A stretch of 64,000 nucleotides of DNA from Narcine bancroftii (GCF_036971445.1 NC_091478.1:91512001-91576000), one strand, 5' to 3'. Shown: positions 27,940 to 60,300, counted from the first letter of the stretch. Numbers and translations are program-made. The notes: a model not told the origin generated them from the letters alone.

Positions 27940-29460
27940 GAGTTAGCATCCCACCTTGCAGACTGCTGAACTCCTGTCCCAGTTGGCTGCCATCGTCGTC
28001 GAGGCGGCCGCGACCGAGCCGGTGGCTGCGTTCGAACTCCTGTCCATGATTCTCTGGATCTCGAGCAATTCCTGCCTCAGGACCTGCTTCTGGTGGAAGG
28101 TGAAGGAAGGGTGGTTGGAAGCCATGGTGAACAAGAGCAGGAATTCGTCCCCAGTGCTGTCGTGGAGCTGAAGGCCGTAGTTGTTGATGAGGGAATCGAT
28201 GTGGGTCAGGGTGCGGTACAAGACCCCAGATGCCTCCCTGTTGTCGGAGCAGAGCAAGGCCAGGGAGACGATGAGTTTGCTGCGGACGACTTCGTCCGTC
28301 ATGTTGGTCAAACTGGCGAGGTCAGCCACGTTGTTGGCCTTGATCTCGGAGTCCCTGAGAGAATGGTAGTCCTTCTTGGCCAAGTCCTCCAGGCAGGAGC
28401 CCAGAAAGCGGAGCTCCAGGGGGATACAGAGGTCGAGCAGTCCGCAGATGAAGTCCACTCTCTGCGAGGAATTCAGCTCGCCGAACCAACGGTAGACCTC
28501 ATCCCGCTGGAGCTGCTTCTGCATCATCTTCACTCACCGGGCCGGGCAGGGCCGGGCCGGGTCTCTCCCCCACACCCCCCCCCCTCCTCTCCCTCAGGAA
28601 TATTAAAGGACGAGGCCAACTTTCAGCTCCGCCGCATTTTGTTTCTTTGTCGATCTTGTTCGGGGGGGGGGTTTCCGCTTGGATTTGGGAGAGGAGGAAG
28701 ATGTACTTTTCCTTCAGCTGAGGAGCCGTTTATTGGCTCGGTTCACGGCCACCCGGTTCCGCTGAAGACCATTCGTGCTCTCCTTTCCTTCCCCCCCTCC
28801 CTCCCCTTTCCTCTGCCTCCCTTCGCTGAGATGAATCGCTGGCGACCTCCAGCCGTGACGCGCACGGTTTCTGACAGCGGGCTTCTTGTCTCCTGGCCGG
28901 GAGCGGCTCGCGCCACCCGCGCGCTCCGGCGGCCCGCCTGGCGGTCACGCGCGCTGGCTGGCTGGCTGTTGGCTCGGCTCCGGCCGTTAAAAAAAAATTC
29001 ATCCCCCCCCCCCTCCTCCTCTGACGTCGTCTCCGCCTCGCCCCGCCCCTCCCTCCTCCTCTGACGTCGTCCCCGCCCTCCCTCCAAACGCGCCCACCCA
29101 TTGGCCCGGCTCGAACTGTCCATCATCCGCGGCTCAGCGACGTCATCCAGCCCTCGCTTCCCAGCGGCGACTTTTGTGTTTTCTTTTAAATCTTTTTTTT
29201 CGCTCCTTCCCGATTTAAAAAGTCAACGCCAAGTCCGTGCGGCTTTTCGCCCTCGAGTTCTTCCACCAAGCCCGGCCGACAGAAGTCCTGCCTTCAGCCT
29301 CTCCGGTCGCTTTATTGCTGAACAGCGCTGTCAATGACACCCCCTCCCCCCCCCCCCAAAAAAAAACTTTGCAAAGACTTTGGGCTGGGATCGGCCGCCG
29401 GAGAACGCATTGACCAGGCCGAAGTTCCTTGAAGTTTGTGCGGCTCCATTTACATTCGGG
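27940..29460 (-). promoter_or_regulatory. CpG island / promoter and 5'UTR of ZCCHC14
   Basis: Sharp GC/CpG enrichment against an AT-rich background. GC boxes (ccccgccc) at 29041 and 29071, CCAAT on the minus strand at 29100-29104, and TGACGTCG CRE-like sites at 29022, 29062 and 29138 (minus). Confidence 0.85.
27955..28527 (-). CDS. ZCCHC14: ZCCHC14 coding exon 1
   Basis: MMQKQLQRDEVYRWF..QRVDFICGLLDLCIPLELRFLGSCLEDLAKKDYHSLRDSEIKANN..FTMASNHPSFTFHQKQVLRQEL matches the ZCCHC14 N-terminus as I recall it. ATG at 28527; ends TGC AAG|GTGGGA (phase 0, 573 nt). The JPH3 neighbour supports ZCCHC14 over its paralog ZCCHC2. Confidence 0.95.
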
Positions 29461-29797
29461 GAAGCTCTTTACGTAATGCTTCGCAAATAGAGGCTAACTC
29501 ATGAAGAATGTCGGCAGGCTGGCCAAGTCTATCACAAACTGAAATATGATCTTGATATTTAAAAAGTAGGGAAAAGTGAAATAACCCGATTCTTCTCGTC
29601 TTTGAAATAATACTCCTGTTTTGGCGAAGGGCGTTGGGACTTTACCAACCCGATTCCAGGACCCTGTGCCATATTCACTGTGTGTGTGTGGGGGGGGGGG
29701 GGGGGGGGGGAATAAACAACACCAGCATTGAAATTACATGGGAAATCATTTATTGTCAATATTGGTGGTCGCTGAACAAAAAAAAACCAGACGATTC

Positions 29798-29959
29798 CAG
29801 AACTTCCTCAAAGTTTATTCCAGCAAATATGCTCTTTCAGAACTTCCTCAAAGTTTATTCCAACAGATACGTTCTTTCAGAACTTGCTCAAAGTTTATTC
29901 CAACAGATACGCTCTTTCAGAACTTCCTCAAAGTTTATTCCAACAGATGTGCTCTTTCA
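29798..29959. repeat. 40-bp minisatellite, 4 copies
   Basis: CAGAACTTCCTCAAAGTTTATTCCAACAGATACGCTCTTT at 29798, 29838, 29878 and 29918. Confidence 0.97.
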
Positions 29960-30669
29960 CTTGGAAATCGACAGGACGTTGGTGGTTTCTTATGTCACAT
30001 CCCTCTTCGCTGGGTGCGGGTTCAAAAAGTGCCTCTTTATTCTCTCGGGAGTGGACAGAAAATACGCCATATGCAGTTTTGTAGGGGTTTCTCTCAACGA
30101 TCGGAAGAAAAATAGAATACTGCAACACGGCTCGTTTATCTTCGGCTACATTACATCGACTTGCATCAGCTTTGGCTGATGGTGGCGTTTTGAATTCTGC
30201 CCACCCATGCCCTGAGGCTTGGAATAATGAGAAAGGGCTTGTTTTTTCTTTTGGACATGCTGCTCTTTGAATGAAACATTCTCCACTGGATTCTCAATTG
30301 AGAATAAAATATTGCATTGCAGTTTGAAGAAACCCATCAGTATAGTAGCCAATTTTTATTTTCAAGCCAGCACCAGGCCATTTATTTCATTGCTGTGTGC
30401 ATGAAACCCCACGATACGCCAATTATTTGCTTTGTTTCCTGCAATACAATAATGAAAGTACTTCAAAAGTATTTTGACTCCAGCGCATTTTGAATTATCT
30501 AAGTTTCTCAAAAACACTAATAGCTTAGACTCTAACATTTGTGCAATCTTCATGAAAATGAATCATAAATGCAGGTTGTTTCACGAGTTCCGAACAGGTT
30601 GTGAGGTGCTGAAAGATGTTACATGACGGCAATTTTTCTTCAAGTTATAGCAGGAGTTGTACTCAACCT

Positions 30670-38732: not shown

Positions 38733-39099
38733 GAGGGCCTTGCTGAACTATTTGGCCTTGGGTAAAATGCCAAAGGTCCGGCTGATGGCCTGCATGCTAC
38801 TGACCACACTTTTGGTTTATTAAAGGATATGGAGTCACCAACAAGATGGCAGCGTGGAGTGTTGCAGAGCCAAAAGACAGTTAAAGCAGATGTATGTTCA
38901 GCATTCTCCAGCTTTAATGAAACTATACAGGGAGACCTCTTTTTAATAATGACTGAATAATCGTGCCATATATTGCATGTATTATCTTCCCAGACTAAGC
39001 TTCATCTCCACTCAATAGGTAATGAGTTAATTATAGAGCCTCAACTAACTCGGAAGGAACCATTATTTCTACCCTTGTTGCCAACCTGCGATCCTGGTT

Positions 39100-39760
39100 A
39101 AAAGGGCCACATCTCGCGATTGAAATCATACCCAGTCGAGTCAGTGATCTGCCGACGAGACTATCGTGTCAAGTTACGATTGCAAACAGGAACCAACCCA
39201 TTAAAGAGCGCCTAGAACTTCAAAACGAACTCCAGAAAACGCTCAAATCAAATAAATAGAATTCGTCAAGGACGAAGAGAATGTTTGTCGTTTCCGGCTG
39301 AATTCCGACCATTGTCGATAATGATTGACGGGGAAAAGGTTACAATTAAGTAGCAGCCGATTGGCGCGACGATCAAGAGAGAGAGAGTGTTCTCAGTCTG
39401 TGACATTATTTCTGCAGCGTGAGCCCTAATACTGAGTGGAGGCGGAAGAGCGTTCCGTCCCAGGGAATTGAAGAGCAGGCAGCGTCTCCGGACAAACACG
39501 TCCACGCGATGAGGAAAGAACGGCCGAGACTCGTTCGTTTTGTGTAAAATGACGAGCCATTTGTTGCAAGTCGGTATAATCGGCGCAGGGGCGGGCGGAC
39601 TCTGCGCTGCTCGTCACCTTCTGGCGAAGCCGCACGTCTTCGCCCCGCCAGTGGTGTATGAGCAGTCTGATCGCGTTGGAGGCACTTGGGTTTATACGGA
39701 GAGAACGGGAAACGATGACCATGGTCTGCCGATACATTCCAGTATGTACAGAGACCTCAG
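39100..39760 (+). promoter_or_regulatory. CpG-rich promoter region of the FMO gene
   Basis: Local CpG enrichment; ATTGG (CCAAT) at about 39360; TCTCGCGA (partial BANP-type motif) at 39112-39119. Confidence 0.6.
39549..39760 (+). CDS. Flavin-containing monooxygenase (FMO GS-OX-like, soluble type), exon 1
   Basis: MTSHLLQVGIIGAGAGGLCAARHL..YEQSDRVGGTWVY..HSSMYRDLR: FAD-binding GxGxxG, GGTW and SSMY motifs. Donor CTCAG|gtactc, phase 2. Confidence 0.93.
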
Positions 39761-39889
39761 GTACTCATGCTTTCTAGATGCACATAATACGCAGTACTAT
39801 TCTGGAATCTCTAACTCCAATTCAATAAGTCATCATTTGTTTTCTATTGCCTAACACTTGCCTGGATAGAGCGTCCTGCAGTTTGAAAC

Positions 39890-41330
39890 AGTTCCTTCGG
39901 CCCAACACGTCCAAGTTGGCTTTCTGGGCTGGACTGGTCCCATTTTACTGGATTTGGTCCATATCCCTCTTAACCTGTTCAAATGTGTTTTAAATGTCAT
40001 ATTTGTTCCCTCCTCTAAAGCTTCATCTTGCAGCTCTTTCCAGATACAGACTGGGTGAAAAAATGGTTTCTCGGGTACCTTTTTAAACCTCTTGCCTTAA
40101 ACCTCACCCCTCGAAATGTTGACCCTGGCATAAAAGACTTTATTGGTGCACCTCATGAATTTAATTAGCTCTACAAGGTCACCCTCATCATACTATACCA
40201 ATGGTTCTTAATCTATATTTTTTTTCCAATCCTATACCATCTTAAGTAATCTCTGACTAACCACAGAACTCCTATGGCGTAGCATAGAGTATTTAAGGTG
40301 GTATGTGAGTGGGAAAAAAAAAGTTGAGAACCAATGAATTCAGCATCTCCCTAGAACTAATGTCCTCTAGTTTCAGCAATATGGTGAATCTCCTCTCCAA
40401 TCTCCCCTTCCAACTCCTAGATATCCTTAGTATTGCTGGGCAATGAGAACTACGCATAATTCACTAAGGGTAGTCTGACCAATGTTTTGCAGATCTGTAT
40501 CATGAGGTCCCAACTTTTATGCTCTGAACTCTGTCCAATGAAAGGCAAGCATGTCCTATGTGGGTTTCACCATCCTGTTCACATGATGTCACCTTGTTTA
40601 GAGAACTGTATTCTTGGGTCTCTCTTCTACAACACTCTCCAAGGCTCTACCATTTACTGTGAAAGTTCTACCGTGGTCTGAGGATACGCTTGGTCAGGGC
40701 CTGGGAATTTGAACACTTAAACGTGCTACAAATCCATCAATAACTCCTGCGTGGTACCATTTACTGTGAAAGTTCTACCGTGGTCCCTCAGAATCCCCTC
40801 CAGCAACTTTCACACTGACCAAATGAGACTCACTGGCTTGTGATCCCCTGGCATATCCTTGCTGCACTTTTTAAATTACCTTAAGATAGCCACCCTCCAG
40901 TTTTCTGGTCCTTCACCCAAAGCCAATTATGTAAATGTCTCTGCGAGGGCTTCCCTCAAGGTCTGAGGATACGCTTGGTCAGGGCCTGAGAATTTGAACA
41001 CTTAAACGTGCTACAAATCCATCAATAACTCCTGTGTGGTACTTTTTATAAGGTTCAGAATATCACAGCTCGTTTGGTTCAATTCAGCTTCTCCGTGATA
41101 AAGACTGATGAGAAATATTCATTTAAAACTCACCCATTTCCTATGGTTCCACACAAAGAGAGCCATGCTGATCTTTAACTGGACCAATTTCCTCTCTAGC
41201 CACCCTTTTATTCTAAATGTAAAATACCTGTCAAATCTCTTGGGATTTTTTATACTCTGCCTGCCAGATCCATCTCACATCTTCTTTTTGACCTTCTGAT
41301 TTCACTCTTAAATATAGTCTTTCTTATTTT
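39890..41330 (-). mobile_element. Decayed CR1 in FMO intron 1
   Basis: Minus-strand CR1 3' motifs (ccatatccctctaaacc-like, agaactacgcataattc, actcactggcttgtgatcccctgg). Confidence 0.55.
40199..40336. mobile_element. Palindromic hAT/Charlie-type MITE
   Basis: caatggttcttaatct..ttttttttcc..taccatcttaa / ttaaggtggta..ggaaaaaaaaagttgagaaccaatg. Confidence 0.65.
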
Positions 41331-41398
41331 TCTTTACCAGAGTCTCACTATCTCTTCATCAGCCAATCATCCCTAAACTAATCAAAGACACTACTTTT

Positions 41399-44300
41399 TG
41401 TGCACTTGACGCGGCCTGCCGCAGTGGTGATCGAGCCGGTACTCTGGGCGGTGAGTGCAACCAAAGACCAGCAGCCCGCACAGCAGCAATGGCTCCAAAA
41501 GCAAACCGGCAAGTGAACGGCAAGGGCAGCTTAAAGGCCAGCAACCCCAAAATGGCGCTGACCTTGCTGTGCAGCCAATAGACAGGGACAGCACGCAGGA
41601 ACCCCTCTTTTGTTATCTTATTGTGACGCCAGCCAAGGGGGGACCACGGTGGGAACAGTGCAAGTATAAAAGTCAGGCCTGAGCCCTAACAAAACTCTGA
41701 GCTTAACCTGACTACGCTACGTATGTGTGTCTTTCGAATAGTGCGCTGGTACATTTGGTGACCCAGATGGTTTAGATGGCATCTAAACCCAGTGATGAGC
41801 GAACAGGAAGAAGTCAATGCAGTCATTCTCAAGCTGCTAACTTTCTGGACGAATCAACCACACATGTGGTTTGACCATGCTGAGCCACAGTTCCAGATCT
41901 GGCAGATTACAGCAGAATCCACCTGGTATTACCACGTGGTGAGCACTCTAGACCAGAACACAGCAGGCCGGGTGGCCAACTTCATCCAGGAGCCCCCATC
42001 AGAAGGCGCGTACACCACCTTCAAGGACTTGCTGATTGAGACCTTCGGGCTCTCACGGCATGAGAGAAGGGCATGTGTGCTCCATCTGGACGGGCAAGGG
42101 AACAGGCCCCTGTCAGCCCTCATAAACAAGATGCTGGCCCTCCTGGGCAAACATGAGCCCTGGATCATATTTGAGCAGGCATTCCTGGAAAAACTGCCCG
42201 AGGACATCCAACTTCTCCTGGCTGACGTGGATTTCAGCGATCCCGGAAAGTCGCAACATGAGCGGACGTTCTGTGGAAACAGAAGAGAGAGTGCTCAGCA
42301 TCTGTGAGGCTCGTCACTGAACCCCACAGCCAGACCTGTTGAGAGAACAGCAGCACCCCATATCCAGACGACCAGTAGTGTTTCTACTACCAGAGATGGG
42401 GCACTGGAGCCCACCAGTACGGACCGCTGTGCACATTTCAGGGAAATGCCAGGGCCAACCCTTGCTAATGGCCGCAATGGCAGCTTCCTGTACATTTGGG
42501 ACTGCCAGTCTGGACAACACTTTCTCATGGACTCAGGAGGAGAGGTCAGCATCCTGCCCCCATCGGGACAGGACACCAGGAACAGGCAATTCCTGAGGGC
42601 TGTTAACAACAGCACGATTCGGACCTATGACACCCGCAAGCCCAACTGCAGTTGGGAGGCAGCATCTTCTCATGGGTGTTCACGCTGGCTGCAGTGGAAC
42701 AGCTGCTTCTTGGGGCAGACTTCTGTGCACCCCCCAGCCTGCTAGTGGATCTCAAGGGAAGGACTTTTCAAACCTTCCCCCTCAAAGACACCAGGCTCCC
42801 AGCGCTCCTCCTGGACTCCAAACAGAGATTGGACAATGAGTATGCCAGGGTCCCGACATGGAGTACAGCACCACATCCTGATCCAGGGCCTGCCACTGCA
42901 CGCAAGGGCAAGACGCCTTCCTCCCGAGAATCTCCAGCTGATGAAGGAGGAATTCAGGAAGCTGGAGGAGCTCGGCATCATACGGCGGTTGGATAACCCA
43001 TGGGCTTCTCCCCAGCACATTGGTACCCGAAGCAACTGGGGGCTGGAGACCATGCGGTGACTACCGCCGGCTCAACTAAGCTACCACACTGGATCGCACA
43101 TCCAGGGCTTCGCAGGGCAAGGATCTTCTCCAAGGTGGACCTATGCAGCGATATCATTATAATATCCCCAAGACTGCCATCATCACCCTGTTCAGCCTCT
43201 TTTAATTCCTTTGAATGCCACACAGACCTTCCAGCGACTAATGGACACTGTGGGCCGAGACCTGGACGGCACCTTCATGTACCTGGACGACATCCTGGTG
43301 GTGAGCAGGAACCAACAGGAGCATATGGCGCACATCCACAACCTCTTCACCTGACTGAGCGAATTCAGCCTGAAGATCAACCCAGCCAAATGCCATTTCA
43401 GAGTGGAGGGCATCGTTTCCTGGGCCACAGGATAACCAGCCACACTGCTACCCAGTAAAGTGGAGAACATCTGGAAGTTCCCCAGATCCAACACAACCAA
43501 GGGACTACAGGAATTCGTGAGGATGATTAATTTCTATCACCGGTTCATCCCCTCAGCTGCCTGGATCATACGGCCCTTGTTCACCCGGACGGCAGGCAAG
43601 GCGAAGGTCATCACCTGGGATGAGGAGTCGGCGGAAGCCGTCGTGAAGGCCAAGGAAACCCTGGTGGTCATCACTCTCCTGGCTCATCCCAGTCAGATGC
43701 TCCAATGGCCCTGATGGTGGATGCCTCAGGAATGGCGATCGGCAGAGATCTGGAGCAGGAGATCAAAGTAAGTTGGTGATCATTGGCTTTCTTCAGCAAA
43801 CATCTGCGAAACTGAAGTACAGTGCTTTCGACTGAGAGCTACTGGTGTTGTACTTAGCCATCCGCCACTTCAGGTACTTCCTAGATGGCAGGTCCTTCAC
43901 GGCTTTCACAGATCACAAGCCCCTGACTTTCACCTTGCCTAAGATCTCCAATCTCTGGTCGGCCCACCAGCAATGACAACTGTCTTGCATCTTGGAGTAT
44001 ACCACAGATGTGAGGCATATCTCTGGCAAGGACAACGTGGTGCCCGCTGCAATGTCCTGGCAAAATATCCACGCGCTATCAAGAAGAGTGGACTTCGTGG
44101 CACTGGCAGAGGCGCAGCAGAAAGATGAGGAGATGCCCCAATACAGGATGCCATATCGGGACTGCAGCTCCTGGACATCCAGTCAGCACAGGAAACACCA
44201 CCCTCCTTTGCAACGTGGCCACTGGTCAAGTCAGACCCATCATCCTGGTGGCTTGGAGACTCTATCCATGGACTGGCTCACTCAACTATCAGGACCACAG

Positions 44301-44780
44301 TCCGGCTGGTAGCCAGCAAATAAGTGTGGCATGAATTGTGGAAACAGGTCAGCGGGAGGGTGAAGGCATGCACGCAGTGCCAAACAACCAAGGTACAGCA
44401 GCATATCAAACACCACCTCAGCGCTTCAAGCCTGCAGAATGAAGGTTTGACCATATCCACGTGGACATAGCAGGACCCTTGCCGATATCCCAGGGTTTCC
44501 ACTATCTGTTCATGATATTCGACCGCTTCACCAGGTGGCCAGAAGCAGTCCCACTGGCAGACACGTCCACAACCTCGTGCGCCAGGGCCCTCATCTTGGG
44601 TGGCATGGTTCAGGTTACCATCCCACATCACATCTGTCAGAGTGGCCCAGTTCACCTCCATTCTGTGGTCCAACCTTGCCAGCCTGTGGGGTGCCTAGCT
44701 GCATCACACAACAGCTTACCACCCATAATCCAATGGGTTGGTGGAGTGCTTCCACAGGCACCTCAAAACTACACTCATGA
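41399..44780 (+). mobile_element. Decayed Ty3/Gypsy LTR retrotransposon (5' LTR, PBS, gag-pol) in FMO intron 1
   Basis: LTR about 41399-41753 ending TACA with TATAAAA; PBS TGGTGACCC at 41756. gag (KLLTFWTNQPHMWF..QFQI), protease (FLMDSGGEVSILP), RT (FSKVDL, YLDDILV), RNase H, integrase (HVDIAGPLP..DRFTRWPEAVPL). Many frameshifts; no 3' LTR seen. Confidence 0.9.
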
Positions 44781-46045
44781 CTTAGTGATAGCAATTATAT
44801 CTAGGTCCTTATCTCACATTGTCCCCTTAACATCACACTTCAACATCTAAAATATGGGGACAAATTCAGAATTTGTAAAATTATATTAAAAATGTAAGCA
44901 GCATTGTAGATCCTGAAATCAAGAGCTAAATCAAAGCAAAGTAATTGATAGGATAACAATACCTAGTTATAAATAGGAAGTCGAGTTTAAATTAAAAACC
45001 ATCACCTGCAAGAAGAGCTGGAAACCTGGTTTTCTTAGTGAATCCCTCCTTTCTAAAGATATGGATTATTAAGGGAATGAGCATTCAACAACTTCAAGGT
45101 TCCTTTTATTTTCACTTAATAATACATAAAAATGTAATATATTTGATTGACTTCATTTTTTCTCTGCTGTAAAGCAAACATAGAGTCACCATGAGCATTG
45201 CCTGGTGCCCCCAACAATAAGAGGAGAATCAAAAGAGAGTATGTTCAGAGACAAAAGTCCATGGATTTGCCTCAAGCGCACCTGCAGCCTTACAGACCAA
45301 ACCATTGGCAGCCCAAGCTCCATGTCCAAACCGCCAATACGATCAGGAAGCCTTCAGCGCCATTCTTATCCTCAGCACCCTCTTGAATTTCAGTTCCTGG
45401 TTCACATGAACCAGTCTCCAGAAGCCCAAAGCCTGTGTGTAACCTTCAACCACCAGTCGCCCGCAGTCTGCGTGAGTTCTTCAACCGCAATCCACAACCT
45501 GTTGGATCGTTCAGCCACTGAGGTCTTTGCTGGTCCACTGCTGTGGTGACCTTTCCTGTACGGTCTTCTCTCATGCTTATTCTCAATGGGAGATGTTATC
45601 CCCGTTTCTGGAGCCCTGCTTACCTGTAACCTGCTTTCAGTTCTGATCTTTTATAGAAGACGAGAGTCAAACATAAGAGAAGTGAGAATCTTTTACAGGT
45701 AGTCTTCATTATTACTTCCCCCACCACTTATTTATGTTTCTTTACCAACCAATAGGTTCAATTGTCTACTACTGGAATCAGTTTATTATTGTAGTATTTT
45801 ATAATCAGAGATTCGTCAAGATTTAATTATGATTTTTTAATTTACTGGCAATTAAAAAATTGGAAAATCATATGCAGTATGTAGCCAAATTATTGACAAA
45901 TTTAATCTGTATTGTTTACACCAGATGCATAAAGTTTGAAATCAACCCCCATGATACCAGCTTGTTTCATTGCCAAATTTCATTAGTTGACTCAATATGT
46001 TTGATTTCCAAATTAGTTTTTTTTCTCTCTTTCTCTCTCCTTTAG

Positions 46046-46184
46046 GACAAATATTCCAAAAGAGGTCATGGGCTTCCCAGATTTTCCATTTGAAGCTCAC
46101 CTCCCCTCTTTCATTCATCACACTGATGTCAGATCATATTTGGAAAAATACACTGATCACTTTGAAATTCAGCCACACATAAAG
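46046..46184 (+). CDS. FMO exon 2
   Basis: Polypyrimidine tract, then tttag|GACAAAT...ATAAAG|gtaaat. Encodes TNIPKEVMGFPDFPFEAHLPSFIHHTDVRSYLEKYTDHFEIQPHIK (typical FMO 'TNxPKEVMxFPDFPF'). Confidence 0.93.
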
Positions 46185-46264
46185 GTAAATGTGAGGTGTA
46201 AAAAAAATTGCACTGTTATTAATTTTCTATTTTGAATTGGAAGTTCACTTTCAACAGAGATAAT

Positions 46265-47430
46265 AGTTCAAATTTATCACATGATTGTACAAGTACAACC
46301 TGACTAAACAATGTTCTCTGGTCATTGGTACAAAAATGAACAAACACACATTCAGACATAAATAACATACAGACAAATGATATAAATGCAGTACATATAC
46401 AAAAAAATTATTGAATAAATAAGAGTCTTGGAGGGCTTGTATGAGCAGTTCATTTAATTCATTCAGCAGTTTCACTGCCTGTGGGAAAAAGTTGTTTCTC
46501 AGCCTGGTGGTTCTGGCACTGATACTCCTGTATCCCTTTCCCAACAGGAGTAACTGAAGATGTTCATATCTGGGGTGGTAGTGGTCCTCATTGATTTTGA
46601 CAGCCCTCTTCAAACACTGATCCTGGTAGATCACATCAAAGGTGGGGGGGGGGGGGTGGTGCGGGGCACAGAGGGAGACCCCATTGATCCCCTCTGTTGC
46701 TCTTCTGGTCCTGTGGATTGGTCTCCAATCCATTTCTCTGCAGTTGGCCGGGACACTCTCGATAAAGCTCATTTAGAAAAATGACAAGATGGTGGCTTTG
46801 CCCACCTCAGTCTTCTCAGGAAGTGCAGTTGCTGTTACACCTCCATGACCAGTGAAGAGATGTTGTGTGACCAGGATAGGTCACTTCTTGGGTGAATTCT
46901 TAGGAACTTGATTTATTCCACTTTCTCCTCTACCGAGCTATTAATGTGTAAAATGGAGGGTTGGTTGTTCTTGATTCCTTCTGAAATCCACAATCATTTC
47001 TTTTGTTTTGTCTACATTGAGATACAGTTTGTTATTCTTGCACCATATCAAGAGTTTGTGTCATCTGCAAACGTGATGACTGTTGGTGCTGGATCTGACG
47101 TTACAGTCGTGGGTCAGTAGCTTGAGCAGGAGCAGACTGAGTACATAGCCCTAAGGTGCAACGCCGGTCAGCTTGATAATGCTCAACATTCTGCTGCCGA
47201 CCCGGATAGGCTGTGGTCTTTTCATTAGTAAGTCCAGAATCCAGTTGCAGAGAGGGGTGTTTAGTCCCAATAAGGATAGCTTTTCCACAAGCCTCTGGGA
47301 AATGATTTTATTAAATACCAAGCTGGTCAATGAACAACCACCTGGCATATGAAGCATCATTTTCTAGGTGGGTCAGGGTGCAGTGGAGGGACAAGCTATA
47401 GCATCATCAATGGAACGGTTCCATATGTAG
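46265..47430 (-). mobile_element. Rex1/Babar LINE, same subfamily as 36090-37690
   Basis: [22 protein letters not shown]; GKGYRSISARTTRLRNNFFPQAVKLLN. Confidence 0.85.
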
Positions 47431-47524
47431 CATTGTTCATGAAGCCAAGGAGAGCCTATAATTGAGTAGATTAAATTAACTGGATTTTGCAGAATACTGC
47501 AATGATTGTAAAATTGTTCAAATT

Positions 47525-48875
47525 GCTGAAGACCCTATGACATCTGTCTCTGAGGGTGTGATAGTACAGATCTATCACCAATGTACATAGTGTATATAGT
47601 TATTGTATCTAGACTGTGCTTACAGCGATTGGCTAAGAGCTAAGCTACGCCTACTGTCTGGGCCTTAAAGGGTTATGTCCCTAGCCAGGTCGGATCATTC
47701 CGGACTGGTCGGCCACCTGTGAAGAGCTCCTGTCTTTTGCTAATAAAAGCCTTGGTTTGGATCAACAAGTCTTTGGTTCTTTCGACAAGCTCTACAGAGG
47801 GTGACGTCAGAACATCAACCAAGAGGGTGAACCCTCGCCAGGAGTCAGGCCCTGACGGTGTTCCTGGCAGGGTACTAAAAATCTGTGCCAACCAACTAGC
47901 CGGAGTGTTCAGACATTTTCAACCTCTCATTGCTGCAGTCAGAGGTTCCCACCTGCTTCAAAAGGGTATCAATCATCCTGGTACCCAAGAAGAGTACTGT
48001 GAACTGCAACAACTACCGTCCAGTAGCACTAACTTCTACTGTGATGAAATGCTTTGAGAGGATAGTCATGGCCAGAATTAACCCGTACCTTAGCAAAGAT
48101 CTGGAACCACTGCAATTCGTCTATTATAACAATCGCTCCACAGCAGATGCAATATCGCTGGCTTTTCACTCCGCTCTCGATCACCTTGAAAAAAGCAATT
48201 CATACATACAGCTGCTCTTCAATGACTATAGTTTGGCCTTCAATACCACTATTCCCTCAGTGCTGGTCAATAAGCTACAAACTCTTGGCCTCTGAACCCC
48301 CCATGCAACTGGATCCTTGACTTTTTCATCAGAAGACCACAGTCAGTATGAATTGGAAACAGCGTCTCCTCCTCACTGATTATCAACACAAGCACACCCA
48401 AAGGATACATGCTTAGCCCCACTGCTCTACTCAGTATATACCCATGACTGCATGGCCAGGCACAATTCCAATACTATCTACAAGTTTGCCGATGACACCA
48501 TAGTTGTTGGCAGAATCACAAACAGCACTGAGGAAGCGTCCAGGAGGGAGGTAGATCAGCTCGTTGAATGGTGTAATGACAACAACCTCATGCTCAACGT
48601 TAGCAAAACCAAGGAGATGTTTTGTGGACTTCAGAATAAAGTCAGGGGAACGTGACCCAGTCCTCATAGAGGGCTCATTTATGGAGAAGATTAAGAACTT
48701 CAAATTCCTAGGTGTCAACATCTCCAAGTATCTGTTCTGGAGCCTCCATGTTGATGCAATCACAAAGAAGGCTCGTCAGCAATTATACTTTGTGACGTGC
48801 TTGAGGAGATTCTGTAGGTCACCAAAGACTCTTGAAAATTTCTACAGGTGTATCGTGGAGATTCTGATTCATTGT
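47525..48875 (+). mobile_element. Rex1/Babar LINE RT region
   Basis: GPDGVPGRVLKICANQLAGVF; NYRPVALTSTVMKCFER; RSTADAISLA; IYKFADDTIVVG; LNVSKTKEM. Confidence 0.9.
47557..47796 (+). mobile_element. 240-bp solo LTR with a 5-bp TSD, nested in a Rex element
   Basis: TGTG...TACA termini; GAGGG on both sides (47552-47556 and 47797-47801); ATTGG box and AATAAA at about 47742. Confidence 0.88.
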
Positions 48876-49249
48876 TCTGCAAATTTACAGCAACTTCTGG
48901 ATTTTTATGCTTCCATGCACTAACATGGAAATTTGGTCAACAATTTGTTGAAAGCTAGCTAGCAATTTGAGCTCTTGCACTACAGCCCAATACATCATTT
49001 GTTAGGGGGGCAGAAAGATGACTTAAATGCCCAAGCAGAAAATAAAGTCTGAGGACGTTGAGAGGGCATGCACCTGCTGATTTTTTAAAATTCAGCTTTG
49101 GTTTGAGAATTCAATACAGGTACTCACAAAAACCTTCTCACTGGCTATTATCTTAAAAATATTCTTACATTTTCCAAACATTTAGCATTTATAATGACTT
49201 TCTAATTCAGAGTTTTAGATTTTATGTTTTGAATATTTACAAAAATAGA

Positions 49250-49480
49250 AATATGGTTAGCATTAGCAGTTAGCACAAAGCTGTTACAACACCAGTTGGA
49301 ATCCAGCGCTGTCTGTAAGGAGTTTGTACCTTCTCCCTGTGTCTGTGTAGGTTTTCCCCGGGTATTTTAGTTTCCTCCCATCTTGTAACAATGTACAGGG
49401 TTGGTAGGTTAATTGGCTGAATTTGGACGGCATGGGATCATGGCCAAAAGGGCCTGTTTCTGTGTTGTATCTCAAAAAAA
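49250..49480 (+). mobile_element. HE1-like V-SINE
   Basis: ggttagc..ctgtctgtaaggagtttgtaccttctccctgtg..gtttcctccca..gggcctgtttctgtgttgtatct. Related copies at about 60720-60920 (plus), 60400-60620 (minus) and 26605-26800 (minus). Confidence 0.7.
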
Positions 49481-50754
49481 TTAAATTGTTTTTAAAAAAT
49501 TTAAACAGTTAAGTTTCTGGTTTCCATATTTTTTTTACACTTCAAAAAGTTTAATGTTTTGAATTTCAGACACAGTATGTTTTTAATAAAATTTAATTGT
49601 CTGACTTGGTTTTTGTCAAGTATAAGGGTATGGCATACCTGACCTTTATTTTATTCTTGTTTTCTTGGATAGGAATAATTTTGGCAGCCCACATTATCCT
49701 TGTATGCTGACAGGTCCTTATGATTCTAAAGGGTTGACTAGGAAGAATTATCCTAGCATTTGTATCAAGTTCCCACAGGAAGGAAGACAAAAGATTGGAT
49801 TATTTTAACTCCAGAGTTCAGTGGTAACTGTCATCTTAACAATGATGGCCCAATTAGTTTTGAAGTCAATATAACCATAGCTAAATTTTGTTTGACAGGG
49901 ATATTCCGGATTCTGAAGCCCAGAGAGTAGCGTTGACTTACAAATCAGCCTTGAGTCATGGGACTGGATAGCCTGTTCTTATCCCTTGTGCTTTTCCTTA
50001 TCTTTTTTTTTTCCATTGTTTTCATAGCAAGGAACCTATTCCATGTATTTGTTTCCAATGATCTCGAACCACTTAAGAAAAGGTTACTTTGATTTCTTCT
50101 ACCACCTGGGATTAAGTATTCAACTGGCCCAGGCAGAAAGTAATTTCTGATTGTAATTTATCTTTGGTTTTCACTTTGGAACCTTTCTGCTTTGGAGCTA
50201 AAATGCTTATACTGTACCCATTTCATATGCAAGATTTTTCTAGCTACGGAACTAGTCACTGGACAACATAAACAGCGCTTGCTTCATTAAATAATGCTGT
50301 ATTATTCGATGTCTCTATATTGTTACAAAATACTGCAAATTGCTGAGGAGTGACCCAAAAAATTCCTGAAAATGACCAACAGAACTTTTCTTTAGCAAAG
50401 ACAACACACACAACTAGAAAATGATGCCATCTCTTTCATTTTTGGCAGTCATTACCAATTCTGCTATAATTTTTTCCATATTCCTTGTGCAAAGTTTATT
50501 ACACAGGAAGCCTGTCTGAGTAACAATCCATGTGTTGGTCTCGCACCAGGAGTAAAGAGAACTTGTTGCTCTAGTGATGCCTGATCAAATTCAACAGATT
50601 TGTGGCATGCAATGCCAAATGGCCAACTCTCACTTTTGTTCTAATTAAAAGGTTTGAAGAGATAAAATCTACTGGGCAGTTATTTTAAAAAAAATAAAAA
50701 CACAGTATTAGTATTTACAAAAGATACGTGAATTAATATGGTAAATCTTTTCAG

Positions 50755-50894
50755 TTTCTCACACATGTTGAACTACTGAGACCTGTATCTGGACCTACTG
50801 GAGATGCTCCAGTTTCATGGGAAGTAACATCTTTGAATCTGAAGAGTCATAGCCGTAACCTGGATAGGTTTGATTCTATTATTGTTTGCAATGG
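50755..50894 (+). CDS. FMO exon 3
   Basis: cttttcag|TTTCTC...AATGG|gtgagt encodes FLTHVELLRPVSGPTGDAPVSWEVTSLNLKSHSRNLDRFDSIIVCNG (FD-x-x-x-VCNG motif). Phase 0 to 2. Confidence 0.9.
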
Positions 50895-50959
50895 GTGAGT
50901 CCATGGTAACTTTTAGCAGTTTTAAGTTATTTTTAAAATTTAATAATTTCTCTCTTCTT

Positions 50960-52650
50960 TCAATATTTTTATTGTTTTATAGAACAAGCACACATTGTAT
51001 GGAGAATATAAGTTTACCAATTTGAAGAATATAAGTACATTTCCAAAATAAACAATAGTATACCCCTTCCCCATAAAATACAATGTTATCAGAATGACAA
51101 AAAAGAAAAAAAAAACAAAGAACTTTTACCCACTACCGAAAAAACCTGGGATGTTTTGACATAAAATTAAAGGTCGTGTAGTTCTGCTGAATCTATAAAA
51201 CATATAACTGAAGGAAAAATCATTTACATAAATAAATACATTAAATGATCAAGACAAACAGATTTAATGCACACGAAAATAGTCCATAAAAGGACTCCAA
51301 ATTTGATAAAAATGAGTGTTAGCTTTCAACGCAGAACACCTGATCTTTTTCTAAATTAAAGCAAGACGTGACATAACATAACCACTGAGTATTAGTGGGT
51401 GGAACAGGATCTTTCCATCTAAGTAGGATAGCTTAGTGCCATGAGTTGCAAGTAGTATGACTTGATGATGAGATGAAGAAGATAGCTCGTTAATATTGTC
51501 TAACACTCCAAACAAAGCCAATAAAGTATTACATTCAAAATTAACACGCAATATTATTGGCAAAACACGAAAAACTTCCCTTCAATGAGGTTCAAGAGCA
51601 GAATATATGTATCAAGGATGCTTCCCTGTCGTTACATCTGTCACATCAGGGATTTAGATCAAGAAATATAAGGGATAATTTGTCTTTAGGCATGCGAGTC
51701 CAACGTACAACCTCTTATTAATTCTAGTAAAATGATTATTTTACCCAAAATTTTATAACTTTTTATGCAATTCCAGTCTTCATCCCAAGTCATTTTTTGA
51801 TTCCCTCATCTTTATTATATCTTCCAACATTTTGCAAAACAAGTGACCTCGGTTGAATAAGTTTCATTTGCAGAGATCTAAAAGGAACTGAGGCTTGGCA
51901 TTGCCAAATTTTAGATTCTATTACTGGGCAATTAATATATATTTTATCTTGTTTTGGATTCAATACTTTAATAGATTGGACGGCCCAGTTTGGATCTCTT
52001 TGGATTGAGGTCAGCTGAAAAGTTTTCCATTTTATCTTTTTTTTTGGAGTAGCACTTCCTTTTTCTTTAGCTAAAGTTAACAGAATGATAAACTGCCCTG
52101 TAGTAAAACATTCCTTTCGTATCTAGTTTCAATTCAGAAATTTTTTTGATTAAAAAGGTTTTTCCTTATCAAGTTTTATATCATCTAATTATGTATTTCC
52201 TCCTTTTCATGATCAATGTTTGCCATTTGGTATGATAAAGATATTCAGTGTTTTCGAGACTTGTTTGTTGTCTCATGACTTTGGAACAGCTATCAGCGAA
52301 GTTTAATTTAACAAATTCACATTTTTTTTAGCTACAGATCAGAAATATTTTACAGGTTCAATTTCCAAATTTTCCCATGGCTTGTGAATCTAACATGCTG
52401 GATGTAATTTTTAAATTACAACCTTCCAAGAAAGGATTTAATAACCTTTATATATGATATGCTTTCACACTTGAGTCAGGTTTCCCTCCATAAGATTAAA
52501 AGAACATGGGAGCATGATTTACAGTTTTCAAACTCAGACAAAAATTGGGATTTGATTCTTAAATTAGTTAACATTTCTTCACTTTGTGCTTGACATACTC
52601 TTAACCAGTTCAAGGTTGTACATTGGACTTGCATGCCTAAAGACAAATTT
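50960..52650. mobile_element. L1-like LINE remnant with an inverted 5' part
   Basis: Minus-strand 3' end at 50960-51715; plus-strand ORF2 segment at 51870-52650 (GLALPNFRFYYWAIN). A 37-bp stretch is shared in inverted orientation. Confidence 0.65.
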
Positions 52651-53692
52651 ACTGATTTCTCAGTTAACTTTTAACATTTCCCTCACCCATTTTTGTTTGC
52701 AAAATTTTGAAGGCCCACATCTTCATAGCCACTGTTCGAAAGGGATGAACTGAAAAGCTTTGATATGCTGCATTGTGGCTGCGGCCTATTAATAATATTG
52801 AATAATTTACCGTAGTTGAAAGAAGCATAGCTGAAAATCATTGATTGCTATCACTGAGTAAATGTGAAGCTTGAGTATTAGTAAAACAGCTATTTGGTAA
52901 TATCATCCATAATGACCTTGATTTTCCTGTTCCATAACTTTTGATATGTATTTTTCACACCATTCTCAAATGCAATAGAACATAATGCCTGCACGTTGCT
53001 ATCCATAAGTTTTGTTGGAGATTTAGCATTAAAATCTCCATCTGGGGCGCTGGACAAAGTGGCGACCCTCTGTCTGCTTTATGGTAGACAAAAGTCAAAG
53101 AATTTCACGTATGTTACATTCTAAATGTGCTATTACATGACAATAGTGGAACCTTGATCTTTAAAATCTATAAATGGACCAAATGTATGGTCTGAACCAA
53201 TAATCAACACCAAATATGGCAGATAATGATGGACTCACCAGTAAGTGATTTAAAAAAAAATGTCATCAGGACTTGATTAATGTCAAACAATATCTCTGAC
53301 ATGTAATATTTAATTTTACAACTGTAGAGTTTTATTCTTCCAGAATTTAATTATTAGAGGTTGAAAAATATAAAAAAATACATGAAGTTGCTGATCTGGG
53401 CTATGCATGCTATTTGTCCTCTTTAGAGGGTGTTTTGCTGGGAAGATTTACCAATTTAAAATGTCATTCATATCTGTACAAAATTTCATTTGTAAGTATG
53501 TACCTTTATTTATCACTGGTAACTGAAAATTCCAATCCATTTGCGACAACATTTGCTAATGGAAAGCAACCCAAATATCTAAAGACAAATATCAAAGTTC
53601 TAGTTAACAAGATTTTGTAAATGAACTTTAAAATCTATTTGTTTGAAATTAATAGCTTGTAAACTTGGTGTGTTTTCATTTTGTATTTTTAG

Positions 53693-54497
53693 CCACTACT
53701 CTGATCCTTTTATCCCGCACATTCCTGAAATTGAAAATTTCAAAGGACAGACAATGCACAGTCACGAGTACAGGGTTGCTGAGCCTTTCCGAGGGAAGAA
53801 CATGGTGCTGCTTGGTGCTGGTCCATCTGGGATTGACATTGCACTGGAATTATGCTTGGTTGCAAATCAAGTTGTCTTGATATATAAAAATTCATTTATC
53901 TCCTCAGCCTTGCCTCCAAATTGCCAGTTTGTCAAAGGTATAAACAGATTTTCACAGACCGGTGTGATTTGTAACGATGGAACGGAGCACCCTGCTGATG
54001 TATTCATCTTTTGCACTGGTTATAACTACTCTTTTCCTTTTCTTGCAAATGAGGTGGGCTTAAATGTCCAAGATCATAGAGTTACCCCACTTTACAAGCA
54101 CATTGTACACACCACCTTTCCAACTCTCTTTTTTATTGGTCTATGCAAAACGGTCTGCCCTTTTCCTTTGTTCCATTGTCAGGTTTTGTTTGCTTTAGCA
54201 ACTCTAGATGGTACATATAAACTGCCATCGAAAGTTAACATGGATGCAGCCACAGAACATGATTATCAGTTCTGTTTGGAAAATGGAATTTCTCACCGAC
54301 ATTTTCATAAATTGGATAGTCTTCAGTGGAATTATAATGATGAGTTAACCTATTTAGCCAAAACTGATCCTTTACCACCTGTAGTGAAAGATCTTTATGA
54401 GGCAAACAAAGAAATAAGAAAGCAAGACCTGTGCAATTATAAAAGATTTAACTTCAAGATAGTAAGCCATGATACATGGAAAAAGGTAAATCCATGA
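53693..54497 (+). CDS. FMO exon 4 (terminal coding exon)
   Basis: ttttag|CCACTAC. Contains the FMO fingerprint FKGQTMHSHEY (FxGxxxHxxxY), NADPH-binding GAGPSG, FCTGY and PLYKH; stop TGA ends at 54497. Spliced CDS is 212+139+140+805=1296 nt, 431 aa, with no internal stops. Confidence 0.95.
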
Positions 54498-54668
54498 CTC
54501 TTTAAAATTGATTACTACTCACTTAATTTGTGCTACACAGTTACCAGAAGTCTTGCTATAAATTTAAGGTCTGCAGCAAAGACAGAAAAATTGGGAAGAA
54601 AACATTATTAATTTTAATGGATAGAAAATTAGGCAGGTCTTCCTGTCCAGTTATTCTCTTCCCATTGT

Positions 54669-54674
54669 AATAAA
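54669..54674 (+). terminator. Candidate polyadenylation signal of the FMO gene
   Basis: First AATAAA noticed after the stop codon, about 170 nt downstream. Confidence 0.45.
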
Positions 54675-55499
54675 AAAATGATTTAATCACTTGGTATCTG
54701 GAAAACATGCAAATTATTGTCAAAACCGTGTAGATAAGATCTTGAATGTCTACACAAAAATCACTAGTTACTACATTGCATTGATTTGTTTTTCCTTTAC
54801 TAAAAATTGTTTAAAATTCTTTTGCAAGTTTGGACATATTTTGCGGACTTGACCAATAGTACAGAAGTAAGTTTTGTTAAGCAAAGCCCCAGATAATAAC
54901 ATTCGTGTGAATGTTATTCAATCTGATTCTATTTCAAAAGAAATGAGCTATTTTCTTTAGATAATATGATGACAGCACTAATCAATCATTGATTATGTCT
55001 ATAAATACAAAGTAAATGAAACTTAAAAGATAATCCTGTGGATTTTATGTTCAATGAAATAGAGTAGGTCTCTGTTGTACATGTATATTCAGTGACTTTA
55101 GCACTGATCCATACACTAATAAGTACCTTCGTAAGTCAGCATCAACATCCTTTGAGTCATCTATTTGATTTTGAAAATTTGTACCTTAGCTAAAATGTTT
55201 TACCAAATTTGGAACCTCAAAATATTAATATACATGTTTCCTACATTATTGGAACACCATTTTAAAAAAAAACTGTATTCCACTCCCGATACAAAATCAA
55301 AATATTGCACAAGTACTAATCTGGCTAGAAAGTATATACAATTAAATGTATGTTACATCGGTAGAATGTGATAATTATTACAAGTTTGAAAATGATTTGG
55401 GTAAAGAATTACCTATTGAGTAAACATAAAATGGAAATCTGTTTAAAAAAAACCCACATTGACAAAAATATCATTATTAAACGAGTATTGAGATTAGTT

Positions 55500-56150
55500 T
55501 TTTAAAAATTATTTAATTGTTTGTATCATTACAGGAAAAAATTAACAAAACATTAAAAGCAAAATGTATAGAAATCCTCACAGAGAGCTCAGAAAAAGGG
55601 AAAAAAATCTGCAAAAATTAGCAGCAGGGTGGAAACTCGGCCCAAGCGGGAGAATGGCGTGTGGAAAGGAGTAGCAATAAAAGGTGGCGCCAAAGGAAGG
55701 GGTTGTTTCATCAAGATTCTGCAGGCTTTGGGGCTCTACATATATGTCACCATCAGGGCAGGGACATTGTGTGTTTTTCTTAAAGGGGAAGGACTGCTAT
55801 TATTTAAAGAGTCAGATTTTACTGTTAAAAATATTGTTTTAAAGAAGAATATGGATAGAACATTAACATTTATTAGCAATAATGTTGTTGAAATTAACAG
55901 GACGCTGAAGAGAAAATGGGTCTTGGCATACCTTAAAAAAAATTAAAGGCAGATAAAGTCTTTTTACAAGAAACACATCTTACCAAATTGGAACATGCAA
56001 AATTAAAAGGAGGATGGGTGGGGAAAGTCCTATCATCTTAATTTGGATCAAAAGCATGAGGTATAGAGATTTTAATTAATAAAAATATACCAATAACAAT
56101 AGAAGAGACTTTAACTGATCAAGCTGGAAGATTTGTAATAGTACTCATGT
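55500..56150 (+). mobile_element. L1-like fragment (ORF1 end and ORF2 endonuclease start)
   Basis: TLKRKWVLAYLKK..VFLQETHL..GGWVGKV..SKA*GIEILINK, a typical L1 APE N-terminus. Confidence 0.7.

Positions 56151-56849: not shown

Positions 56850-60300
<3,451 letters not shown>

What the first reader, a model, noticed from the sequence alone, without database searches (positions are those of the whole stretch)
39549..54497. Intact soluble, non-FMO1-5 flavin monooxygenase inside the ZCCHC14-JPH3 syntenic pair: candidate TMAO-related or xenobiotic enzyme
Seen: four exons splice in frame to 431 aa with all class-B FMO motifs (GAGAGG, FKGQTMHSHEY, GAGPSG, CTGY). The protein ends ..SHDTWKKVNP with no hydrophobic tail, and the frame is intact despite transposon-laden introns. 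Known: mammalian FMO1-5 are about 530 aa, ER-anchored by a C-terminal helix and encoded elsewhere; shorter soluble FMOs occur in insects, plants (GS-OX), yeast and bacteria (trimethylamine monooxygenase); elasmobranchs use TMAO as an osmolyte. Inference: this is a separate FMO lineage apparently absent at this locus in human, and a candidate soluble TMA-to-TMAO or other N/S-oxygenase. The substrate cannot be read from sequence.
Basis: partly seen in the sequence, partly recalled or inferred. Interest (0 to 1): 0.7.

Follow-up and report, generated by a model that had tools for sequence, protein, structure and literature searches.

The report
Insect-type soluble monooxygenase kept in rays
An electric ray carries an intact, spliced gene for a short, tail-less flavin monooxygenase of the insect/plant type, shared with non-mammalian vertebrates and many invertebrates; it likely adds oxygen to nitrogen or sulfur compounds in the cytosol, and a special role in making the osmolyte TMAO is untested and probably not its main job.

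Summary
Observation confirmed. Four exons with GT-AG introns give 431 aa, identical to an existing RefSeq model of Narcine bancroftii. All three junctions appear in 4 of 4 probable RNA runs (one study). The protein is a clade II FMO: closest solved relative is the grasshopper alkaloid N-oxygenase (TM 0.90), then garlic FMO and bacterial Tmm; mammalian ancestral FMO1-5 fit worse. It is not ray-specific. Relatives, named zgc:77439 or 'FMO GS-OX-like', occur in sharks, freshwater and marine bony fish, amphibians, reptiles, ostrich, hagfish, lamprey and many invertebrates; no mammal was named in three top-120 lists. The genome also has an intact, spliced, membrane-tailed FMO1-5-type gene. Best reading: a cytosolic NADPH-dependent N/S-oxygenase for dietary or endogenous soft nucleophiles. 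Oxidising TMA in vitro is plausible, since plant GS-OX5 does it; being the ray's TMAO source is unlikely (about 12%). The gene is annotated but uncharacterised. The point of some interest is a vertebrate clade II lineage that the main text of a 2023 FMO phylogeny does not list.

The parts
39549..39760 (+). Coding exon 1: FAD-binding GxGxxG, GGTW, Tyr67
   Evidence: junction in 4 of 4 runs
46046..46184 (+). Coding exon 2: Thr72-Asn73 active-site dyad; Met79 starts the 353-aa RefSeq isoform
50755..50894 (+). Coding exon 3, ending in CNG of the CNGH motif
53693..54497 (+). Coding exon 4: FMO fingerprint, NADPH-binding GAGPSG, CTGY, polar C-terminus, stop
54498..55800 (+). Probable 3' UTR; contigs of 2 of 4 runs reach 55800, the end of the stretch laid; AATAAA at 54669 and 55676
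39001..40000 (.). CpG-rich probable promoter/5' region (CpG observed/expected 0.97-1.31, GC 0.46-0.52); spliced contigs extend upstream of the ATG
39509..39547 (+). 12-codon upstream ORF ending 1 nt before the main ATG; function untested
41762..44850 (+). Broken Ty3/Gypsy-like retroelement remains in intron 1 (DUF7041 by Pfam; RT- and integrase-like pieces judged by eye; stops and frame changes); no LTR pair found
27943..28527 (-). Neighbour: first coding exon region with a Vts1-like domain (ZCCHC14 by recall)
58386..58769 (+). Neighbour: junctophilin first coding exon (JPH3 by recall)

Best explanation
This is an intact, spliced clade II flavin-containing monooxygenase gene of the zgc:77439 family, whose product is likely a cytosolic NADPH-dependent enzyme that oxygenates nitrogen and sulfur atoms of dietary or endogenous small molecules. 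Shown: gene structure, splicing, no hydrophobic tail, family placement and conserved catalytic residues. Inferred from FMO chemistry (PMC10682829, PMC9950137): NADPH reduces FAD; O2 forms the C4a-hydroperoxyflavin, held by bound NADP+ and Asn73; a soft nucleophile enters the open clade II funnel and takes one oxygen atom; water and NADP+ leave. Thr72 beside Asn73 points to N/S oxygenation rather than Baeyer-Villiger chemistry. It likely works as a soluble partner to the single membrane-bound FMO. The lineage appears to be older than vertebrates and lost in mammals.
For: Sequence: PDB best hit 5nmw 261 bits, garlic FMO 219, Tmm-type 149-185, ancestral mammalian FMO1-5 146-160. Fold: model pLDDT 93; TM (query) 0.90-0.91 to 5nmx/5nmw, 0.86 garlic, 0.82-0.86 bacterial, 0.76-0.78 ancestral FMO1-5. 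The roughly 70-residue clade I insertion after the NADPH motif is missing: the alignment to the genome's canonical FMO breaks between 237/225 and 247/300. Tree of 55 rows: all 29 vertebrate short FMOs form one branch (99/100) without the canonical FMO or Tmm-type rows; cartilaginous-fish rows plus canonical FMO rejected, AU p 0.0009. In 133 hand-picked animal relatives: Asn73 132, Thr72 131, Tyr67 132, Ser209 133, Asp212 133; hydrophobic tail 0 of 133. ZvPNO is soluble and oxidises alkaloids and cysteamine (PMC3282741 passages). Clades I and II are described as mainly detoxifying (PMC10682829).
Against: No activity, localisation or tissue data for this protein. Only 33-34% identity to ZvPNO, so its substrates do not transfer; ZvPNO itself is a specialist that did not take dimethylaniline. 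Low copy number and conserved length across animals fit a specific endogenous substrate as well as detoxification. The tree holds one clade I sequence, no plant, fungal or ZvPNO row, used LG+G4 without the mixture model, and carried a long-branch warning. The site aligned with the Tmm-type Arg (229) is variable in the family, so NADPH preference is assumed.
Confidence: 0.62

Rival explanations
1. It is the main TMA-to-TMAO enzyme that supplies the osmolyte in rays and sharks.
For: Clade II enzymes can do this: Arabidopsis FMO GS-OX5 oxidised TMA in vitro (PMC8133759 passages), and Tmm structures are close in fold. The only complete clade I FMO found in this genome has Ile and two His at the sites matching the AncFMO5 Baeyer-Villiger triad (triad from PMC9950137). 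Elasmobranchs share a changed residue beside the NADP site: 227 is I/V/M in 13 of 13 against S/C in 120 of 120 others. A soluble TMA monooxygenase in a copepod is recalled, not retrieved.
Against: Kept in freshwater fish and land vertebrates. One copy found in this genome, no expansion (lower bounds). Tmm-type Tyr/Asp/Arg are Pro208/Lys316/Lys229 here. The canonical FMO is intact and spliced in the same 4 runs, and the tetrapod ancestor that carries that triad also did S/N oxidation. Recalled, not retrieved: TMA oxidase of nurse shark and cod liver is microsomal, and many elasmobranchs show little of it.
Confidence: 0.12
2. It is a housekeeping enzyme for one endogenous substrate, most plausibly a sulfur compound such as cysteamine, hypotaurine or another thiol/thioether, which clade I paralogs took over in mammals.
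For: Retention from lamprey to ostrich with near-constant length. A C-x-x-x-C-P-F segment at 315-321 is conserved in vertebrates, often with Lys/Arg at 316, which might suit neutral or anionic substrates (inference). ZvPNO and two related insect FMOs take cysteamine; garlic FMO and GS-OX are S-oxygenases; mammalian FMOs contribute to taurine synthesis.
Against: No direct data. The review states that S against N preference cannot be predicted from sequence. Position 316 is variable in tetrapods and invertebrates.
Confidence: 0.22
3. It is a decaying or catalytically dead relic.
For: Five Narcine-only changes and one (228) shared with 2 other elasmobranch rows at otherwise conserved sites; a RefSeq isoform lacks the FAD motif.
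Against: Open frame, correct splicing in 4 of 4 runs, all catalytic motifs kept, 77-84% identity to other elasmobranchs, end branch 0.11, the same as Mobula.
Confidence: 0.04

Closest known systems
zgc:77439 / 'FMO GS-OX-like' vertebrate proteins (automatic database names)
   Same: Same lineage: 84% to Pristis zgc:77439, 77% to sharks, 66% to Callorhinchus, about 50% to bony fish and tetrapods.
   Different: No functional study found in 10 literature searches. Elasmobranch-specific residues at 16, 176 and 227.
Zonocerus variegatus pyrrolizidine alkaloid N-oxygenase (5NMW/5NMX), insect clade II FMO
   Same: Best sequence and fold match over the whole length; shares GAGPSG, short NADP insertion and polar C-terminus.
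   Different: 33-34% identity; ZvPNO is an alkaloid specialist; the segment at 315-321 differs.
Plant GS-OX / garlic AsFMO1 (6WPU)
   Same: Clade II fold, TM 0.86, RTN dyad; GS-OX5 can oxidise TMA.
   Different: 31% identity. The database name 'GS-OX-like' is only a similarity label; a glucosinolate role makes no sense in a ray (inference).
Bacterial trimethylamine monooxygenase (Tmm/mFMO)
   Same: Clade II, soluble, TM 0.82-0.86.
   Different: 26-30% identity; S-N dyad, Tyr, Asp and Arg replaced by T-N, Pro, Lys and Lys; long separate branch.
Vertebrate FMO1-5 (clade I)
   Same: Same motifs and inferred chemistry.
   Different: Lacks the NADP-domain insertion and membrane helix; 4 coding exons against 8 in the genome's own clade I gene; 23-24% identity in structure alignments.

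Membership tests
Group B FMO | Two GxGxxG Rossmann motifs and the FxGxxxHxxxY/F fingerprint | tested here: met
   Pfam FMO-like 94 bits on exon 4 alone, cut-off 22
Group B FMO | Conserved Tyr, Asn, Ser and Asp around the flavin and nicotinamide | tested here: met
   Tyr67, Asn73, Ser209, Asp212; sites described in PMC10682829
Group B FMO | NADPH-dependent oxygenation through a C4a-hydroperoxyflavin | not testable with these tools
   needs an assay
Clade II FMO | Short NADP-domain insertion; length near 450 aa or less | tested here: met
   431 aa; insertion absent against the canonical FMO; definition
Clade II FMO | No membrane helix | tested here: met
   hydropathy; solubility itself was not measured
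Clade II FMO | Groups with characterised clade II members | tested here: inconclusive
   Best sequence and fold hits are clade II. The tree had no ZvPNO, plant or yeast row and its deep branches are open.
FMO1-5 (clade I) | NADP insertion and C-terminal membrane helix | tested here: not met
FMO1-5 (clade I) | Groups with clade I | tested here: not met
   AU p 0.0009 with one clade I row
Tmm (bacterial TMA monooxygenase) | WSNGPKE dyad region, Tyr in the second GxG motif, Asp at 316, Arg at 229 | tested here: not met
   against 6 Tmm-type rows, labelled by motif match to PDB Tmm alignments
Tmm (bacterial TMA monooxygenase) | Oxidises TMA | not testable with these tools
   needs an assay
Baeyer-Villiger-type FMO (FMO5-like) | Ile or Leu before the catalytic Asn | tested here: not met
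   Thr72; rule

The most novel reading that the evidence does not exclude
Non-mammalian vertebrates run a second, overlooked, soluble FMO system that mammals lost. In sharks and rays, whose only membrane FMO carries the FMO5-like triad, this soluble enzyme was retuned (the shared change at 227) into the main source of TMAO.
Probability: 0.12. Interest if true: 0.7.

Novelty: new member of a known kind. Interest (0 to 1): 0.33.

Why it matters
The two FMO evolution papers read describe vertebrate FMOs as the membrane-bound clade I family: one copy in early jawed vertebrates (PMC9950137), and no vertebrate listed under clade II in the main text of PMC10682829 (its supplement could not be read). 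A conserved soluble clade II enzyme in fish, amphibians and reptiles would matter for fish toxicology and for reading old cytosol/microsome assays. It is easy to test, because it should express as a soluble protein and has a zebrafish-named relative. It would be of high interest only if it proved to be the elasmobranch TMA oxidase.

Tried and rejected
Ray-specific or horizontally acquired gene: rejected. The vertebrate rows form one branch that broadly follows the species, and the closest bacterial relatives are only 29-39% identical (30 loci). Canonical FMO broken, leaving this as the only FMO: rejected. The two stops flagged do not interrupt the 8-exon, 529-aa frame, and the two junctions around the 73-nt exon appear in 4 of 4 runs. 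Second clade I gene on contig C8: only a last-exon match; no other exon in 70 kb examined or in a genome search with the large exon. Contig depths were not used to rank expression, and tissues are not given. No run is on record as RNA. dN/dS was not computed: no orthologous coding DNA was available. Absence from frogs: dropped after a Bombina protein turned up. Literature: 10 searches listed no paper on zgc:77439 or a vertebrate clade II FMO; most hits were seen as listings only, and subscription journals are not held. The classical shark, cod and copepod TMA oxidase papers were not retrieved. The ZvPNO structure paper is not held. The supplement of PMC10682829 was unreadable and may show vertebrate clade II rows. 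The Atlas gave only FMO clusters and could not read the ZCCHC14-like exon. Plasmid search: 654 records, all under 60% identity, not used. No earlier finding of this scan matched.

Full report
Observation. Splice sites give exons 39549-39760, 46046-46184, 50755-50894 and 53693-54497, three GT..AG introns and a 431-aa frame. The product is letter for letter RefSeq XP_069757924.1 of Narcine bancroftii, 'uncharacterized protein'. All three junctions are present in contigs of 4 of 4 runs, and in 3 of the 4 a single contig spans all four exons. These runs are one study, their RNA status is the tool's guess and tissues are unknown. The start lies in a CpG-rich stretch. The neighbours are a Vts1-like-domain exon and a junctophilin exon; the names ZCCHC14 and JPH3 are recalled. 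A human paper calls the JPH3-ZCCHC14 interval intergenic (PMC5366092, passages).

What it is. By sequence the closest solved structure is the grasshopper alkaloid N-oxygenase (261 bits), then garlic FMO (219), bacterial Tmm-type enzymes (149-185) and ancestral mammalian FMO1-5 (146-160). A confident model (pLDDT 93) ranks the same way by fold: TM 0.90-0.91, 0.86, 0.82-0.86 and 0.76-0.78. PMC10682829 (parts 1-3 of 6 and the Discussion read) defines clade II as soluble, near 450 aa, with a shortened NADP-domain insertion, and places ZvPNO, GS-OX, yeast FMO and Tmm there. This protein lacks the insertion and the tail, so it is filed as clade II. Tyr67, Asn73, Ser209 and Asp212 are kept, and Thr72 points to N/S rather than Baeyer-Villiger chemistry.

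Distribution. Three searches listed the best 120 of 246, 2248 and 1202 hits. Named relatives include rays, sharks, chimaera, coelacanth, lungfish, bichir, gar, many marine and freshwater teleosts, salamanders, caecilians, turtles, lizards, snakes, alligator, ostrich, hagfish, lamprey, amphioxus, echinoderms, molluscs, crustaceans and insects; a frog came. Several are named zgc:77439. No mammal is named in the three lists. In the turtle-query list 106 of 120 rows are named and the 14 unnamed rows best match teleosts. This suggests loss in mammals but does not prove it: only top rows were shown and one search scored a capped candidate set. In a 55-row tree all 29 vertebrate short FMOs form one branch (99/100), the 7 cartilaginous fish form another inside it (100/100), and ray-finned fish have two sub-lineages. 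Joining the cartilaginous-fish rows to the canonical FMO is rejected (p 0.0009); joining them to Tmm-type rows is marginally rejected (p 0.037). The tree had one clade I row, no mixture model and a long-branch warning. Rows were hand-picked named proteins, not all hits.

The other FMO in this genome. A family search found 11 matches: 3 in this gene, 7 on contig C11 and 1 on C8. The C11 exons join to an open 529-aa clade I FMO with a hydrophobic tail (hydropathy 2.75), and its last two junctions appear in the same 4 of 4 runs. It has Ile and two His at the sites matching AncFMO5. PMC9950137 (parts 1-2 of 7 and passages read) shows that this triad confers Baeyer-Villiger activity and that the tetrapod ancestor did both chemistries. 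So the ray has a second candidate for TMA oxidation, although not an FMO3-like one.

How it most likely works. Inferred from established FMO chemistry: NADPH reduces FAD, oxygen forms a C4a-hydroperoxyflavin held by NADP+ and Asn73, and an amine or sulfide reaching the open funnel is oxygenated. With no signal-like N-terminus (the first strand starts at residue 8) and no tail in 0 of 133 relatives, the enzyme is likely cytosolic. I put 0.62 on a general N/S-oxygenase, 0.22 on a dedicated endogenous (probably sulfur) substrate, 0.12 on being the main TMAO source and 0.04 on a relic. For the TMAO reading: plant GS-OX5 oxidises TMA in vitro (PMC8133759, passages), the canonical FMO is FMO5-like, and elasmobranchs share a change at 227 (13 of 13 against 0 of 120). 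Against it: retention in freshwater and land vertebrates, one copy found, Tmm-type residues absent, ZvPNO not taking dimethylaniline (PMC3282741, passages), and recalled reports of microsomal TMA oxidase in fish, which I could not retrieve.

Novelty. The gene is annotated and the enzyme class is well studied, so this is a new member of a known kind. Ten literature searches listed no study of this vertebrate lineage. The main text of PMC10682829 lists no vertebrate in clade II, but its supplement was unreadable. PMC8131381 counts one fmo gene in zebrafish and does not mention zgc or GS-OX names (passages). The lineage looks overlooked rather than surprising. Interest 0.33.

Noticed in passing
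G000:C11:69403441-69459003 (L004-L006, L008-L011, L047): The only complete clade I FMO found: 8 coding exons, 529 aa, membrane tail, with Ile/His/His at the sites of the Baeyer-Villiger triad; spliced in the same 4 runs.
   Followed up: yes
G000:C8:233734391-233734735 (L007): A lone FMO last exon with an open frame and hydrophobic tail, 51% identical to the C11 gene; no other exon in the 70 kb examined.
   Followed up: partly
window 46046-54497: RefSeq lists a 353-aa isoform starting at Met79 that lacks the FAD-binding motif; isoforms of 355-356 aa are listed for carpet sharks. Likely inactive or an annotation product.
   Followed up: partly
window 39509-39547: A 12-codon upstream ORF stops one base before the main start codon.
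   Followed up: no
window 53880-53891 (residues 227-230): Elasmobranchs replace the family's Ser-His motif with Ile/Val/Met-His beside the NADP site; this ray also has Tyr for His.
   Followed up: partly
P0444: An alligator model in this family's cluster is named after SNAPC2, a hint that the gene lies beside SNAPC2 there and has changed neighbourhood.
   Followed up: no
L017-L034, L039, L042-L045: Mostly marine Gammaproteobacteria and Verrucomicrobia, plus Francisella, carry short FMOs 30-39% identical to the animal family and distinct from Tmm in motif.
   Followed up: partly
window 41762-44850: Broken Ty3/Gypsy-like element in intron 1 with no LTR pair found; an 89-nt direct repeat at 40675 and 40960; LINE-like fragments in intron 2.
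   Followed up: partly
window 29732-30115: Short tandem-like repeats inside a CpG-poorer stretch upstream of the ZCCHC14-like gene, seen as repeated peptides in the ORF list.
   Followed up: no
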